Below are positions 14,094 through 24,967 of a stretch of 64,000 nucleotides of DNA, piece by piece. This DNA comes from the human T2T-CHM13v2.0 reference genome, Homo sapiens: NCBI RefSeq assembly GCF_009914755.1, contig NC_060927.1, one strand, 5' to 3'. Numbering within the stretch: position 1 is the stretch's first letter; the number at the start of each line of letters is the position of its first letter. The notes under the pieces were generated by a model. It did no database searches. It saw only the letters and a program-made list of their open reading frames with translations, and had not been told where the DNA came from. The position numbers and the translations under genes are program-made.

Positions 14094-14429
14094 GACCTCC
14101 ATCTTCACCAAGAAATGTTATCTCTAATATAAACGAGACCTCAGTTATCCTGGACTGGAGTTGGCCCCTGGACACAGGAGGCCGGAAAGATGTTACCTTC
14201 AACATCATATGTAAAAAATGTGGGTGGAATATAAAACAGTGTGAGCCATGCAGCCCAAATGTCCGCTTCCTCCCTCGACAGTTTGGACTCACCAACACCA
14301 CGGTGACAGTGACAGACCTTCTGGCACATACTAACTACACCTTTGAGATTGATGCCGTTAATGGGGTGTCAGAGCTGAGCTCCCCACCAAGACAGTTTGC
14401 TGCGGTCAGCATCACAACTAATCAGGCTG
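14094..14429 (+). CDS. EPHA3: EPHA3 internal coding exon (exon 5): first fibronectin type III domain, (R)PPSSPRNVISNINETSVILDWSWPLDTGGRKDVTF...AVSITTNQA
   Basis: Acceptor tttgcag|GA at 14093/14094 and donor CTG|gtgagt at 14429/14430. 336 nt, phase 1/1. Core of ORF 14075..14479 with Eph FN3 motifs (W.WP..TGGR.D..F, YTFEIDAVNGVS). Confidence 0.97.
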
Positions 14430-15244: not shown

Positions 15245-18179
15245 TTGGAGCCAAAGGGAGAGGGAAGAGAGAGACAAGATGCCACTCTGATTCTCCAGAG
15301 AACTACCGATTCTCCAGTTCTCTCCCAGGTGGGGTCACCTCTGAGCTGGTTGTCAAGATTGAGTATAAACTCGGCTTCTGCTCTTCATTTGGCTTACATT
15401 ATGGACATCCCTCTGGTCCCTAGTGGGAATCACCCCTTGCTCTGAGAATATCAGAATGTGTCCTGGATGCTCTAGGCAAAAGGAAACCAGAGGTGACTAA
15501 ATTATCTTATCACCTAGGTCTTCTAGTAGCCAAATCATGAGCCAAAAAAACTCACCACATTCTGTTTCCATCACCTGGCTTACTCAGAAAGGTTAGTTCA
15601 ACTAGTAAAGACACAGAGTAAGTGTCATCTACAAAAGCAAGTATGCATCAATATGACTCTGCTGGTTGTTAACATTTTCATCTATTTATCTACTGGTTAA
15701 ATGTAGTTCTAGCTGTTCCTGCAGGTTATTACAGAAATGCCTCTCTACTGGTTAATTTCTCAAATACACTGAGTAGTCCCCTAAGCTCAGTATGTCAGGT
15801 CCATCTCCATTCTCCCCATCATTCAGCAACCAAAGGGATAAATCTTTGCATAAGAGGGGTATACAGAGCCTTTGGCTAGCACCCGTCTTTCTTGAGGGGC
15901 CCCTGTCTTCCCCATGCCAATGGATAGATATTTTAAATATAAGCCATGGCAGAGTCCATCCATATTCAAATACGTATCTTTCTGATTCTAAATTTCTCTT
16001 TCGTTTCCACTTTGCTTCTGGTCTCATATATTGATGAAAATCTTATATTTTTACATTCCTCATGATGATAAGTAAACTTAATTTGTGGAAAATACATGAA
16101 TTTTAAATGAAGTGCACTGAATCATTACTTTAATCTTGCTCACTGTATCTATAATTTCTCCCACTTGGAGCTAGATCCCAGACCAACCAGTATATGCTTT
16201 GCTTTGCTTCCGTTAATGGTATTTATACTTTGTAACTAATGATATTTAAAAGTTTATAACTTAGGTTTATTTAACTGTCTTCTATGGGAAAAAATGAGTA
16301 CTGCAATACTGTTGCTATATATTGCATGATTATGGCTTCTCATCTTCAGCTAACACAGGAATTTTAACAAATTATGATCATGTGGCAAATGGTTTTCCGG
16401 AGCGCTATATTTCAAGCTGATTTACTACCTTGTTTAAAATTGTAGCATCAATCTGTGTTACAATTATCTCTTAAGTCAAACAGAATTGTATAAAAACAAA
16501 CAAGAGCTCCTTATTTCCTATCTTATCATTCCCCTCTGGCTTTCTGACAATGCATTTATCAGGAAACTAATAGTTCCAAATATACACAGTAAATGAATCT
16601 AGGCAAAGTGGCAACCAAGATCAGGCCAAGACATTAAAAAATAAATGAGATTGATGCTTTGGCCCTCCCAGTTACAAATCACAGTTTAAGACAGATTCAG
16701 CAAAGGTGATAGAAGTTACTTACCCTAGTCTCTCTCCCATTTAAAAAAAATCACTAATGTGTTTATAATATGCACCACCAGGCATTTTATATATTTATTT
16801 CAGGATGTCTGTATCATTTTGTGTGCCTGGGGAGATAGAGGTCTTTGTTCTATCTTCAAATCTCCAGGGTAAGATATATAAGCATGATTAGAAGCAATGC
16901 CTTTTCTGAAGGGAGTGTTTCTTTGTTTTCCTTTATTTTTGTTCTTGTGAAGGTTAATGGACTGGTAGCCTTGAAAAATAAGCTCCCTACCACTGGAAGG
17001 ATATGGCTGTGACAGATATGATGCCAGGGTGCTTAAAATCCTCCTAGCCTCTATCTTTGACGTGGATATAAAGGGGAAGCATGAATGTGTCCCTTTTAAT
17101 TTAGTTTGTGAGATCGAGTTTGTTGATTCTTCTCTTGATGACATTGTAAAAGCATTGTGATGATCAAATGATAAGGCACCTTTTAAATTGTAGAAGATTA
17201 TGTTGTAAATTCGGATATTAGTTCTCAGCTCTCAATACTTTCACAAAGTATGTCAGTGAGATAAGAAAGTAGGCCACCATATAAAGATTGTATCTGTGAA
17301 TCCATCAGTCAAGTAAAGAAAGAATTGCAGATTACAACACAAAAATCTTCAAACTTATAACGACATAAATTGCTGCTTTTTGTTTTCTTTCACAGAATGA
17401 GTATATTCATCTTTTTTTTTCTTCTGGACAAAAACAATCATTCCACTAGTGGAATATGCATATCTGTTCATTCTTAACTGCCATTATAGAATCTGCCGCT
17501 TTCCACTATTCTATAGCATATAATGATCTCAGACTAGAATAAGGAGCACTAATAGAGAATGTATGTGGCCTTGGGGTTTGGAGGTCCACCTCTACTCTTA
17601 TTTTACTACTTGGATGAACTGATATCTGAGAAGCTTTTTCAACATTTCATCAAGACAGCAAAGTTCTGAGTAAATTGACATTTCCTCCCTTTACCAGTTT
17701 ACCCTATTGGAATTCAGCATGTGTATGTACAATTTCTATCATAAAATTGGATTCATTCACATGTGTGAAAATATTGCAATAGTGTGCATTATGCCTATAT
17801 ACCTTCACCCAGATTTCTCCTAGATTAATAATTTATTCCACGTGCTTTATCCGTCCCACCCCCATCTCTCTTTCTATGTAAATGTTACTTATTTCTGAAC
17901 CACTTGCAGATATTATGACCTTTTCCTCCTGAACACTTCAGTGACAATTTCTTTTTTTTTTTTTCTTTTTTTTTTTTATACTTTAAGTTTTAGGGTACAT
18001 GTGCACATTGTGCAGGTTAGTTACATATGTATACATGTGCCGTGCTGGTGCGCTGCACCCACTAACTCGTCATCTAGCATTAGGTATATCTCCCAATGCT
18101 ATCTCTCCCCCCTCCCCCCACCCCACCACAGTCCCCAGAGTGTGATATTCCCCTTCCTGTGTCCATGTGATCTCATTGT

Positions 18180-22030
<3,851 letters not shown>

Positions 22031-22066
22031 TTAGTTGATGCAGTTTCTTCCTAGTCTCGATGGTCT

Positions 22067-23083
22067 TTACATTTTGGCATGATTTTGCAGCAGCTGGTAC
22101 CAGTTGTTCCTTTCCATGTTTAGCGCTTCCTTCAGGAGCTCTTTTAGGGCAGGCCTGGTGGTGACAAAATCTCTCAGCATTTGCTTGTCTGTAAAGTATT
22201 TTATTTCTCCTTCACTTATGAAGCTTAGTTTGGCTGGATATGAAATTCTGGGTTGAAAATTCTTTTCTTTGAGAATGTTGAATATTGGCCCCCACTCTCT
22301 TCTGGCTTGTAGGGTTTCTGCCGAGAGATCCGCTGTTAGTCTGATGGGCTTCCCTTTGAGGGTAACCTGACCTTTCTCTCTGGCTGCCCTTAACATTTTT
22401 TCCTTCATTTCAACTTTGGTGAATCTGATAATTATGTGTCTTGGAGTTGCTCTTCTCGAGGAGTATCTTTGTGGCATTCTCTGTATTTCCTGAATGTGAA
22501 CGTTGGCCTGCCTTGCTAGATTGGGGAAGTTCTCCTGGATAATATCCTGCAGAGTGTTTTCCAACTTGGTTCCATTCTCCCCGTCACTTTCAGGTACACC
22601 AATCAGACGTAGATTTGGTCTTTTCACATAGTCCCATATTTCTTGGAGGCTTTGCTCATTTCTTTTTATTCTTTTTTCTCTAAACTTCCCTTCTCACTTC
22701 ATTTCATTCATTTCATCTTCCATCACTGATACCCTTTCTTCCAGTTGATCACATCGTCTCCTGAGGCTTCTGCATTCTTCACGTAGTTCTCAAGCCTTGG
22801 TTTTCAGCTTCATCAGCTCCTTTAAGCACTTCTCTGTATTGGTTATTCTAGTTATACATTCTTCTAAATTTTTTTCAAAGTTTTCAACTTCTTTGCCTTT
22901 GGTTTGAATGTCCTCCCATAGCTCAGAGTAATTTGATCGTCTGAAGCCTTCTTCTCTCAGCTCGTCAAAGTCATTCTCCATCCAGCTTTGTTCCATTGCT
23001 GGTGAGGAACTGCGTTCCTTTGGAGGAGGAGAGGCGCTCTGCGTTTTAGAGTTTCCAGTTTTTCTGTTCTGTTTTTTCCCCAT
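22067..23083 (-). pseudogene. L1 ORF1p, disrupted by a premature stop at codon 98 (CGA>TGA, 22790-22792)
   Basis: ORFs 22790..23083 (MGKKQNRKTGNSK...) and 22067..22627 (...NHAKM) are in the same frame. Confidence 0.95.
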
Positions 23084-23379
23084 CTTTGTGGTTTTATCTA
23101 CTTTTGGTCTTTGATGATGGTGATGTACAGATGGGTTTTTGGTGTGGATGTCCTGTCTGTTTGTTAGTTTTCCTTCTAACAGACAGGACCCTCAGCTGCA
23201 GGTCTGTTGGAATACCCTGCCTTGTGAGGTGTCAGTGTGCCCCTGCTGGGGGATGCTTCCCAGTTAGGCTGCTCGGGGGTCAGGGGTCAGGGACCCACTT
23301 GAGGAGGCAGTCTGCCGGTTCTCAGATCTCCAGCTGCGTGTTGGGAGAACCACTGCTCTCTTCAAAGCTGTCAAACAGG

Positions 23380-23986
23380 GACATTTAAGTCTGCAGAGGT
23401 TACTGCTGTCTTTTTGTTTGTCTTTGCCCTGCCCCCAGAGGTGGAGCCTACAGTGGCAGGCAGGCCTCCTTGAACTGTGGTGGGCTCCACCCAGTTCGAG
23501 CTTCCCCGCTGCTTTGTTTACCTAAGCAAGCCTGGGCAATGGCGGGCGCCCCTCCCCCAGCCTCGCTGCTGCCTTGCAGTTTGATCTCAGACTGCTGTGC
23601 TAGCAATCAGCGAGATTCCGTGGGCGTAGGACCCTCTGAGCCAGGTGTGGGATATAGTCTCGTGGTGCGCTGTTTTTTAAGCCGGTCTGAAAAGCGCAAT
23701 ATTCGGGTGGGAGTGACCCGATTTTCCAGGTGCGTCCGTCACCCCTTTCTTTGACTCGGAAAGGGAACTCCCTGACCCCTTGCGCTTCCCAGGTGAGGCA
23801 ATGCCTCGCCCTGCTTCGGCTCGCGCACGGTGCGCGCACCCACTGGCCTGCGCCCACTGTCTGGCACTCCCTAGTGAGATGAACCCGGTACCTCAGATGG
23901 AAATGCAGAAATCACCCGTCTTCTGCGTCGCTCACGCTGGGAGCTGTAGACCGGAGCTGTTCCTATTCGGCCATCTTGGCTCCTCC
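23380..23986. promoter_or_regulatory. L1 5'UTR CpG-rich bidirectional promoter (sense promoter on -, antisense promoter on +); YY1 site at 23969-23977
   Basis: CpG-dense L1 5'UTR with AAGATGGCC intact on the - strand. Promoter function is inferred from L1 biology. Confidence 0.75.
23539..23754 (+). CDS. LINE-1 ORF0 (71 aa, MAGAPPPASLLPCSLISDCC...RCVRHPFL), intact, on the EPHA3 sense strand
   Basis: 216-nt ORF inside track ORF 23470..23754 with strong Kozak (GCAATGG). Matches the known primate L1 antisense ORF0 peptide. Donor motifs CAG|GTGTGG (23644) and CAG|GTGCGT (23729) are intact. Expression is unproven. Confidence 0.8.
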   Translation: MAGAPPPASLLPCSLISDCCASNQRDSVGVGPSEPGVGYSLVVRCFLSRSEKRNIRVGVTRFSRCVRHPFL

Positions 23987-24967
23987 TGAGTCTCCATATA
24001 TTCCAGTGACAATTTCTTAAAAACAATAATGCTTTTACATAGTCTCAATATATTTATTAAAATCAAGACATTAGCATTGTTCTATACTATAATCTCATCT
24101 GAAGATACTAGTCAACTTTTGTTCATTGTTTCACTCATATCCAAATGGCAAAAACAAATTGATGTTCTGTTTACCTCCAGTTTCTATTTATAATAATAAC
24201 ATATACTGATATAATATAGTTCCCATCCATAAAAATAAATAAGTAATTTTCTGTAAATTCAAGGCAGATGCAAAAAAAAAAAAAAAAGTGGAGAAGGAAG
24301 AAGACCAACACTTATTGATAGGACTTTCCAGGTGCTGGATATGATGCAGGGAATTTCAGAGTTGCCATTCCATTCAAAAATGATCAGCAAATTATGATAT
24401 TTAAAAGAGAGAACGTGACTTCATTTTATGTAGATTTTCGATAGAAGGTGCACTAATTTATGTAAAGGAAAAGATCTTTGAGGCTGTTAGCTATAATGAA
24501 GGAATTCCTATCCTCTGCTTTAGACAGAATGACCTCTATTATCTACTTAATTTGATGATCAAAGACAACCTCCTTCTTTTCCCCTTAGATAAACGCCTTC
24601 CTTTCTTCTGGCTGAAAATTGCCATCCATTACATGAAGGGATTAAACTGGAAATCCAATAATTATTTTTGTTTTTAATTTATTTTTTGGCATTCTGGGAC
24701 TATAATTCAAAATGTTGTCACTAATATAATTTTAAACAATTAATTATTTTTGACCTTTAAGACCACCTATGGACTCACTTACTATAAAAAACGTTTATAG
24801 GCTTTCTCGTTCATGGTTTTATGGCCTTTTATTTCACAGAATAAAGCAATAGTATCCATTCGTTAAGAAAAGTAAATATCTTTAATAAATGTTAAATAAA
24901 CAAGATATACTTAAAAAAAGAACTGTAAAATATTAGAGCCCTTTGACTAAATTTAGAATCCACACTA

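What the first reader, a model, noticed from the sequence alone, without database searches (positions are those of the whole stretch)
23539..23650. Intact L1 ORF0 whose first splice donor is in phase with EPHA3 intron 5: predicted ORF0-EPHA3 kinase fusion
Seen: the full-length L1 is antisense to EPHA3, so its antisense promoter points along the gene. ORF1 and ORF2 are both broken, but ORF0 (ATG 23539, strong Kozak) is intact. Donor CAG|GTGTGG at 23644/23645 falls 106 nt into ORF0 (35 codons + 1 nt, phase 1). EPHA3 exon 5 also ends in phase 1 (GCT G|gt), so the next exon must start in phase 1. Known: L1 antisense promoters drive chimeric host transcripts (e.g. L1-MET), and ORF0 forms fusions through these donors. 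Inference: splicing to exon 6 would give 35 aa of ORF0 fused in frame to FN3-2, TM, kinase and SAM. That is an EPHA3 with no signal peptide or ephrin-binding domain, potentially switched on by L1 demethylation (tumours, germline, early embryo) and restricted to lineages carrying this insertion. The second donor (23729) is phase 2 and would be out of frame.
Basis: partly seen in the sequence, partly recalled or inferred. Interest (0 to 1): 0.8.

Follow-up and report, generated by a model that had tools for sequence, protein, structure and literature searches.

The report
Ordinary L1 ORF0 inside EPHA3 intron
A dead but full-length L1PA2 retrotransposon in EPHA3 intron 5 keeps its small antisense gene ORF0, and one ORF0 splice site does line up in frame with the next EPHA3 exon, but this is a common coincidence and no RNA evidence for the predicted fusion protein was found.

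Summary
The sequence observation is correct in every detail. A 6-kb L1 lies antisense to EPHA3 in intron 5. ORF1 and ORF2 are broken. ORF0 (23539-23754, 71 aa) is open, and the donor CAG|GTGTGG after 23644 is in phase 1. I located the real exon 6 in the same assembly, 44.6 kb downstream. The join reads through in frame, while the donors at 23729 and 23792 do not.

The configuration is not special. ORF0 was open in 150 of 150 scored genomic copies, out of 8,640 candidates. Chance alone keeps it open about 70-80% of the time. ORF0's two donors are in phases 1 and 2, so most non-phase-0 introns fit one of them. The second antisense L1 in EPHA3, in intron 15, is also in frame with its next exon.

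The locus is already published as L1-EPHA3-IVS5, an L1PA2. It is heavily methylated in most cells, and its hypomethylation went with lower EPHA3 mRNA. No EPHA3 intron-5 chimera appears in the L1 antisense-transcript catalogues I could search.

The fusion is a legitimate, testable prediction without support. I put the chance of a detectable in-frame transcript at about 7%.

The parts
17939..17953 (.). Left target-site duplication, CAGTGACAATTTCTT
   Evidence: An identical 15-mer occurs at 24004-24018, and these are the only two copies in the window.
17954..17977 (-). L1 poly-A tail, read as a T-run with one C on the + strand
17978..23986 (-). Full-length, retrotransposition-dead L1PA2, published as L1-EPHA3-IVS5
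   Evidence: Pfam hits to Transposase_22, Tnp_22_dsRBD, Exo_endo_phos and RVT_1. The first 750 aa of ORF2 align end to end with solved human ORF2p 8uw3; by my count of the printed alignment about 19 residues differ. It is 97.7% identical over 6033 nt to the L1HS in intron 15. Lanciano 2024 Table S2 lists it as L1PA2, REF, full-length, present in 12 of 12 cell lines.
22067..23083 (-). ORF1 remnant, frame kept, premature stops at codons 98 and 130
18295..22003 (-). ORF2 remnant: 752 open codons, then frame changes near L1 nt 4243 and 5019; the RT active-site motif differs from the solved ORF2p
23488..23605 (+). Region to which published L1 antisense-promoter start sites (L1 nt 386-503) map in this copy; it straddles the ORF0 ATG
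   Evidence: Figure 2 legend of review PMC4730256, citing Denli 2015. The mapping is by my own numbering, accurate to a few nt. Nothing was measured at this locus.
23539..23754 (+). ORF0, 71 codons plus stop, open
   Evidence: It differs at 2 aa and 7 nt from the ORF0 of the intron-15 L1HS. There is no Pfam family.
23642..23650 (+). ORF0 donor 1, CAG|GTGTGG, phase 1, in frame with exon 6
   Evidence: It matches the consensus at 7 of 9 positions. The consensus and the U1 motif were recalled.
23727..23735 (+). ORF0 donor 2, CAG|GTGCGT, phase 2, out of frame with exon 6
23790..23798 (+). Third donor, CAG|GTGAGG, downstream of the ORF0 stop; second-best predicted U1 pairing of the seven listed donors and best of the three with 7 or more of 9 consensus matches; would give complete ORF0 and no fusion
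23987..24003 (.). 17 nt of non-L1 filler between the L1 5' end and the right TSD
   Evidence: The filler plus the L1 start is unique in the genome at 2 mismatches or fewer.
24004..24018 (.). Right target-site duplication
14094..14429 (+). EPHA3 exon 5 (first FN3 domain), ends in phase 1
   Evidence: Hub annotation; Pfam fn3 at E 1.1e-11; reads through into exon 6.

Best explanation
The feature is the standard ORF0 of a fixed, full-length but retrotransposition-dead L1PA2. The element inserted antisense into EPHA3 intron 5 and is already published as L1-EPHA3-IVS5. Its ORF0, start context and antisense-strand splice donors are the generic features carried by thousands of young L1 copies. That donor 1 shares phase 1 with intron 5 is a coincidence. 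In most cell types the promoter is heavily methylated and, most likely, silent. If the element does anything on demethylation, a cis effect on EPHA3 expression is more likely than a fusion kinase. Shown here: the anatomy, the frame compatibility with the real exon 6, the commonness of the configuration, the published methylation values, and the absence from the searched catalogues. Inferred: silence of the antisense promoter at this locus, and the fate of any product.
For: ORF0 is generic. A whole-genome search gave 8,640 first-look candidates, and 150 of the 150 scored cover residues 1-71 with no stop at 94-100% identity. Enumeration predicts that ORF0 stays open with probability 0.71-0.82 after 7 substitutions. 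By contrast ORF1 and ORF2 are 5 and 18 times longer.

The phase match is cheap. ORF0's donors are in phases 1 and 2. The intron-15 L1HS has identical donors, and its donor 2 reads in frame into exon 16, 5,867 nt away.

Methylation (Lanciano 2024 Table S2): mCG is 0.84-0.98 in 9 of 12 cell types, 0.69 in HEK293T, 0.076 in 2102Ep and 0.014 in K562. Phokaew 2008 describes the locus as highly methylated in normal oral epithelium and white blood cells.

Aporntewan 2011 found that lower L1-EPHA3-IVS5 methylation went with lower EPHA3 mRNA, r = 0.80.

Catalogues: there were 0 EPHA3 entries in the 11 supplementary files of Criscione 2016, although EPHA6 is listed. The 1 EPHA3 row in Pinson 2022 belongs to the intron-15 L1HS. 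There were 0 entries in the held supplementary files of Garza 2023 and of PMC9288060, one file each.

Lanciano 2024 states that most unmethylated L1HS loci stay unexpressed.
Against: All sequence prerequisites for a fusion are intact. The promoter region keeps 36 CpGs in about 900 nt, against 37 in the L1HS copy. ORF0's ATG is the first ATG, in a good context. Donor 1 is unchanged relative to the L1HS copy. Exon 6 has a strong pyrimidine-rich acceptor.

Pinson 2022 reports that about 17% of recent L1s with a 5' UTR give chimeric transcripts in brain or glioma. That paper also says such expression follows host-gene activity when the antisense promoter and the gene share orientation, as they do here.

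The locus is almost unmethylated in 2102Ep and K562, so permissive states exist.

The catalogues searched are shallow (ESTs, 11 brain and glioma samples). Denli's fusion list was not readable. No RNA-seq, CAGE or junction database could be queried.
Confidence: 0.78

Rival explanations
1. When this L1PA2 is demethylated, or EPHA3 chromatin is open, its antisense promoter fires upstream of 23539. The transcript splices from 23644 to exon 6. ORF0's first 35 codons are then translated in frame with EPHA3 from the second FN3 domain onward, giving a receptor with no signal peptide or ligand-binding domain.
For: The frame was verified on the real exon 6 and stays open through exons 6 and 7. The junction codon G|CT is the same alanine codon as in the normal exon 5-exon 6 join. 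Downstream exons carry fn3 halves, and EphA2_TM matches at C3:89489513-89489608. The ATG context and absence of upstream ATGs are favourable. Precedents exist for TE-driven truncated receptor kinases: L1-MET from an L1PA2, ALK-ATI and ERBB4. Reviews citing Denli 2015 state that ORF0 forms fusions through its two donors.
Against: No transcript evidence was found. Per Criscione 2016, citing Denli, only 57 of about 3,200 ORF0 loci showed exon fusions.

Published start sites span L1 nt 386-503, so part of them lie downstream of the ATG at about 452. For such transcripts the first 4 ATGs in exons 6-7 are all out of frame.

Two competing donors match the consensus better, at 8 of 9 positions against 7 of 9, and one of them pairs much better with U1. 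Both give stops.

The donor must reach across 44,567 nt. Thirteen poly-A signal hexamers lie between 23539 and 27000, the first only about 70 nt beyond the L1 5' end.

Hypomethylation at this locus went with less, not more, EPHA3 mRNA.

The 35-aa ORF0 part has no basic N-region and only a weak hydrophobic stretch (best 9-aa Kyte-Doolittle mean 1.89). A folded FN3 domain would therefore have to cross the membrane without a signal peptide, so correct topology is doubtful (inference).
Confidence: 0.07
2. The element matters in cis, not as a coding exon. When hypomethylated, its bidirectional promoter makes L1 and intronic RNA that interferes with EPHA3 pre-mRNA or transcription and lowers EPHA3 output. 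This is the AGO2 model of Aporntewan 2011, and it is analogous to the reported reduction of MET signalling by L1-MET.
For: Methylation of L1-EPHA3-IVS5 and of IVS15 correlated positively with EPHA3 mRNA in head-and-neck cancer lines (r = 0.80 and 0.76). [quoted passage not shown] AGO2 knock-down raised EPHA3 mRNA. The review PMC5134097 reports that L1-driven MET transcription reduced MET protein and signalling in one study.
Against: The evidence is correlative and comes from one laboratory. The L1-EPHA3 RNA they detected came from intron 15, not intron 5. Methylation of the two L1s is tightly correlated (r = 0.913), so the intron-5 copy cannot be separated from the intron-15 copy or from a locus-wide chromatin state. 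Pinson 2022 found no general inverse link between L1 methylation and antisense-promoter output.
Confidence: 0.13

Closest known systems
L1 ORF0 and ORF0-exon fusions (Denli et al. 2015, Cell 163:583; not held here, known through passages of PMC4908685, PMC4859970 and PMC4730256)
   Same: Antisense strand of the 5' UTR at about L1 nt 237-452, 71 codons, purine at -3 and G at +4, with two internal splice donors.
   Different: Transcription, translation and any fusion are unshown for this copy. Whether it is among the 57 reported fusion loci could not be checked.
L1-MET: an L1PA2 in MET intron 2 whose antisense promoter drives a truncated MET transcript
   Same: The same L1 subfamily, antisense in an intron of a receptor tyrosine kinase gene, with a promoter controlled by CpG methylation.
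   Different: L1-MET has EST, RT-PCR and tumour evidence. It splices through a MIR-derived exon into exon 3 and is thought to use a MET start codon. Here there is no RNA evidence, and the next exon is 44.6 kb away.
TE-promoted truncated receptor kinases: ALK-ATI (LTR16B2) and ERBB4 I12/I20 (MLT1 LTRs)
   Same: An intronic transposable-element promoter would remove the extracellular ligand-binding part of a receptor kinase.
   Different: Those use LTR promoters and host start codons, and have demonstrated proteins and oncogenic activity. ALK-ATI also lacks the membrane segment. The product predicted here keeps FN3-2 and the membrane segment but has no signal peptide.
L1-EPHA3-IVS5 as studied by Phokaew 2008 (PMC2553567) and Aporntewan 2011 (PMC3057998)
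   Same: It is this very element. It is one of the two full-length L1s of the EPHA3 gene listed in Lanciano's table and the one that lies in intron 5. The spacing between the two EPHA3 L1s is 115,216 nt in hg38 and about 115,235 nt in this assembly.
   Different: Those papers treat it as a methylation marker and a cis-repressor. Neither mentions ORF0 or a fusion. The primer table that would prove identity was not readable.

Membership tests
Full-length primate L1 (L1PA2) | Target-site duplications and a 3' poly-A tail | tested here: met
   A 15-bp perfect TSD and a 24-nt tail.
Full-length primate L1 (L1PA2) | 5' UTR, ORF1 (RNA-binding) and ORF2 (endonuclease plus reverse transcriptase) in order | tested here: met
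   Pfam hits and the alignment to solved ORF2p. Both ORFs are broken.
Full-length primate L1 (L1PA2) | Subfamily assignment (L1PA2 rather than L1HS) | tested here: inconclusive
   It is 2.3% diverged from an L1HS copy. The 3' UTR reads GAG at the site where, by recall, the Ta subfamily has ACA. Lanciano 2024 Table S2 labels the locus L1PA2. No subfamily consensus was available to align.
L1 ORF0 | Open frame of about 70 codons on the antisense strand at L1 nt 236-452, with a strong start context | tested here: met
L1 ORF0 | Two splice donors inside the frame | tested here: met
   Donors at 23644 and 23729 are identical to those of the L1HS copy. This is by sequence only.
L1 ORF0 | Transcribed from the antisense promoter and translated | not testable with these tools
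   No RNA, CAGE or ribosome data are reachable.
L1 antisense-promoter chimeric transcript / ORF0-exon fusion | L1 antisense to the gene and upstream of a coding exon, with the donor in the intron's phase | tested here: met
L1 antisense-promoter chimeric transcript / ORF0-exon fusion | An observed spliced RNA joining the L1 5' UTR to the host exon | tested here: not met
   Absent from the catalogues that could be searched and from full-text searches. Primary RNA data were not testable.
TE-promoted truncated receptor tyrosine kinase | The product retains the kinase domain | tested here: inconclusive
   The frame is open through exons 6-7, and the membrane-proximal exon lies downstream. The remaining exons were not assembled. 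The rest follows from the normal EPHA3 frame.
TE-promoted truncated receptor tyrosine kinase | The protein is detected and signalling-competent | not testable with these tools
   None.

The most novel reading that the evidence does not exclude
In cells where this L1PA2 is unmethylated or EPHA3 chromatin is open (embryonal carcinoma, early embryo, some leukaemias or gliomas), the antisense promoter yields an ape-restricted ORF0-EPHA3 protein. It would lack the ephrin-binding, cysteine-rich and first FN3 domains, and would act as a ligand-independent or dominant-negative Eph receptor and a possible tumour-specific antigen.
Probability: 0.04. Interest if true: 0.6.

Novelty: already known. Interest (0 to 1): 0.18.

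Why it matters
If the fusion were real, it would be a lineage-restricted, epigenetically switched, truncated Eph receptor and a candidate tumour antigen, in the same class as L1-MET. As things stand, the value of this check is negative. An intact ORF0 with a donor in the intron's phase should not be scored highly on sequence alone. Thousands of L1 copies keep ORF0. Its two donors fit any phase-1 or phase-2 intron. The second L1 in the same gene shows the same 'hit'. The prediction can be tested cheaply in existing RNA-seq of K562 and 2102Ep, where the locus is unmethylated.

Tried and rejected
A crude scan for cryptic exons between the L1 and the window end found 0 candidates. It required at least 16 of 20 pyrimidines, YAG, and a donor matching at least 8 of 9 positions. 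By my reading, the real acceptors of exons 4 and 5 would fail that threshold too, so the scan says nothing and I dropped it.

I searched for the source of the 17-nt filler as a possible 5' transduction. The only hit was the locus itself.

Donor ranking by consensus match and U1 duplex energy uses a recalled consensus and U1 motif, not a trained model. It is indicative only.

I considered reading selection into the ORF0 differences from the L1HS copy, where 5 of 7 are silent. I rejected this because the numbers are too small, the differences mix subfamily and decay changes, and by my reading of the sequence several of the sites are CpG sites.

Five papers were not held: Denli 2015, Speek 2001, Macia 2011, Yang 2003 and Matlik 2006. 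The supplements of Phokaew 2008 and Adami 2025 were unreadable.

After both fn3 halves were found, only 150 of the 247 ORFs from the 30 kb beyond the window had been scanned. The other 97 were not scanned.

Full report
OBSERVATION.
- On the + strand, an ATG at 23539 opens a 71-codon frame ending at 23752-23754.
- The start context is gggcaATGG, with G at -3 and G at +4. No other ATG occurs on that strand between 23291 and 23760.
- CAG|GTGTGG has its last exonic base at 23644, which is 106 nt into the frame (phase 1). CAG|GTGCGT at 23729 is 191 nt in (phase 2).
- A third donor, CAG|GTGAGG at 23792, lies past the ORF0 stop.
- Exon 5 (14094-14429) ends GCT G|gt in phase 1.

THE ELEMENT. The L1 lies on the minus strand.
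- It has perfect 15-bp target-site duplications at 17939-17953 and 24004-24018 and a 24-nt tail.
- Its body runs from 17978 to 23986, followed by 17 nt of non-L1 filler before the right duplication.
- Pfam finds the ORF1 RNA-binding domains and the ORF2 endonuclease and reverse-transcriptase domains.
- ORF1 keeps its frame but has premature stops at codons 98 and 130. ORF2 is open for 752 codons and then changes frame near L1 nt 4243 and 5019.
- The open part of ORF2 aligns end to end with solved human ORF2p (8uw3). By my count of the printed alignment about 19 of 750 residues differ, including one in the reverse-transcriptase active-site motif.
- The element is 97.7% identical over 6033 nt (130 mismatches, 6 gap openings) to the L1HS in EPHA3 intron 15.
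- Lanciano et al. 2024 (PMC10879037, Table S2, searched) list hg38 chr3:89345615-89351640(-) as a reference, full-length L1PA2 seen in 12 of 12 cell lines. The spacing between that element and their EPHA3 L1HS is 115,216 nt. In this assembly it is about 115,235 nt. I therefore take them to be the same two loci.

THE FRAME CLAIM, TESTED ON THE REAL EXON 6. The window's own assembly could be searched. I fetched the 30 kb beyond the window and scanned 150 of its 247 open stretches of 30 aa or more against Pfam.
- This gave the two halves of an FN3 domain: profile positions 9-39 at E 3.7e-6, and positions 40-83 at E 2.4e-7.
- Exon 6 is L005:4212-4336, which is 68212-68336 in window numbering. It is 125 nt long and has a pyrimidine-rich acceptor.
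- Exon 7 is at 71693-71855 in window numbering.
- Exon 5 plus exon 6 translate without a stop.
- ORF0 up to 23644 joined to exon 6 also reads through, and stays open through exon 7. The junction codon G|CT is the same alanine codon as in the normal mRNA.
- Joins from 23729 or 23792 run into stops.

The product would begin with 35 ORF0 residues and continue with the second FN3 domain. An EphA2_TM match lies further downstream, at C3:89489513-89489608.

HOW SPECIAL IS IT? It is not special, for three reasons.
- ORF0 is almost always open. A genome search with this ORF0 gave 8,640 first-look candidates. All 150 that were scored cover residues 1-71 without a stop at 94-100% identity.
- Chance explains why ORF0 survived while the larger ORFs broke. 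Only 4.9% of all single substitutions (2.8% of transitions) remove the ATG or create a stop. A copy with 7 substitutions therefore stays open with probability 0.71-0.82. ORF1 and ORF2 are 5 and 18 times longer.
- The phase match is cheap. It is nominally 1 in 3 for one donor. Because ORF0 carries donors in phases 1 and 2, any phase-1 or phase-2 intron fits one of them.

As a control I applied the same test to the other antisense full-length L1 in EPHA3, the intron-15 L1HS. Its ORF0 is open and differs from this one at 2 aa. Its donors are identical. Its second donor reads in frame into exon 16, the start of the SAM domain, only 5,867 nt away. Both L1s in the gene therefore score a 'hit'.

WHAT IS PUBLISHED ABOUT THIS LOCUS.
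- Phokaew 2008 (PMC2553567, passages read) measured 'L1-EPHA3-IVS5' among 17 intronic full-length L1s. It was highly methylated in normal oral epithelium and white blood cells, and barely hypomethylated in some cancer lines.
- Aporntewan 2011 (PMC3057998, passages read) found that lower methylation of this L1 went with lower EPHA3 mRNA (r = 0.80). The L1-EPHA3 RNA they detected came from intron 15.
- Lanciano 2024 gives mCG fractions of 0.076 (2102Ep), 0.014 (K562) and 0.69 (HEK293T), and 0.84-0.98 in the other nine cell types. Its text says that most unmethylated L1HS loci remain unexpressed.
- Criscione 2016 (PMC4908685) catalogued 988 EST-supported antisense-promoter transcripts. EPHA3 occurs 0 times in its 11 supplementary files, though EPHA6 is listed.
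- Pinson 2022 (PMC9396940) has one EPHA3 row, with 0-2 reads per sample. It belongs to the L1HS at hg19 chr3:89509975-89516006, the intron-15 element.
- The held supplements of Garza 2023 and of PMC9288060 (one file each) have no EPHA3 entry.
- Full-text searches for EPHA3 combined with L1 terms returned only the two methylation papers and one unrelated mappability paper.
- Denli 2015, which holds the list of 57 ORF0 fusions, is not held.

MECHANISTIC APPRAISAL.
In favour of the fusion:
- The promoter region keeps 36 CpGs in about 900 nt, against 37 in the L1HS copy.
- Donor 1 is intact, and the exon 6 acceptor is strong.
- Pinson 2022 reports chimeric transcripts from about 17% of recent L1s in brain. 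That paper ties them to host-gene activity when the antisense promoter and the gene share orientation, as they do here.

Against the fusion:
- A review legend citing Denli places the 24 mapped antisense start sites at L1 nt 386-503. This range straddles the ATG at about 452. Transcripts starting downstream of the ATG meet four out-of-frame ATGs first in exons 6-7.
- The two other donors match the consensus better (8 of 9 against 7 of 9), and one of them pairs much better with U1. This ranking uses a recalled consensus and U1 motif.
- The donor must reach over 44,567 nt. Thirteen poly-A signal hexamers lie between 23539 and 27000, the first only about 70 nt beyond the L1 5' end.
- Criscione 2016, citing Denli, gives 57 fusions among about 3,200 ORF0 loci.

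The 35-residue ORF0 part has no basic N-region and only a weak hydrophobic stretch. The product would thus lack a signal peptide. Whether its membrane segment could carry a folded FN3 domain across the membrane is doubtful. This last point is inference from general knowledge of membrane-protein insertion.

COMPARISON WITH KNOWN CASES. The closest case is L1-MET. There an L1PA2 lies antisense in MET intron 2, and its methylation-controlled antisense promoter drives a truncated MET transcript through a MIR-derived exon. ALK-ATI and ERBB4 I12/I20 are LTR-driven truncated receptor kinases (PMC5134097, passages read). The EPHA3 element meets the sequence-level criteria of an ORF0 locus. It fails the defining criterion of a chimeric-transcript locus, which is an observed RNA.

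VERDICT. The element itself is already in the literature. I put about 0.78 on 'ordinary, normally silent L1PA2 with a generic ORF0', about 0.13 on a cis-repressive role as its main effect, and about 0.07 on a detectable in-frame fusion transcript. I put about 0.04 on a functional fusion protein.

LIMITS. No expression data of any kind could be queried, several primary papers and supplements were unavailable, and the subfamily label rests on a published table rather than an alignment to consensus sequences.

Noticed in passing
Outside the window: L008:2197-8225 (G000:C3:89537197-89543225, minus strand), with exon 16 at L010:5837-5992: The second antisense full-length L1 of EPHA3 is an L1HS in intron 15. 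Its ORF0 is open, and its second donor (phase 2) reads in frame into exon 16 (SAM domain), 5,867 nt downstream. It is the source of the only EPHA3 L1 chimera in Pinson 2022. Lanciano's table marks it as a source element with progeny.
   Followed up: partly
window 23987-24003: There are 17 nt of non-L1 sequence between the L1 5' end and the right target-site duplication. The filler plus the L1 start occurs nowhere else in the assembly at 2 mismatches or fewer, so no source locus for a 5' transduction was found.
   Followed up: yes
window 19745-22003 (minus strand): Within the still-open first 752 codons of ORF2, the reverse-transcriptase active-site motif differs from that of the solved human ORF2p. 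The element would therefore be inactive even without its frame changes.
   Followed up: no
window 23091-23990: Despite 2.3% overall divergence from the L1HS copy, the first ~900 nt of the element keep 36 CpGs against 37 in that copy. The CpG-rich promoter has hardly decayed.
   Followed up: no
window 23539-23754 vs L008:7779-7994: Of the 7 nt differences between the two ORF0 copies in EPHA3, only 2 change the protein. This is too few to test for constraint.
   Followed up: no
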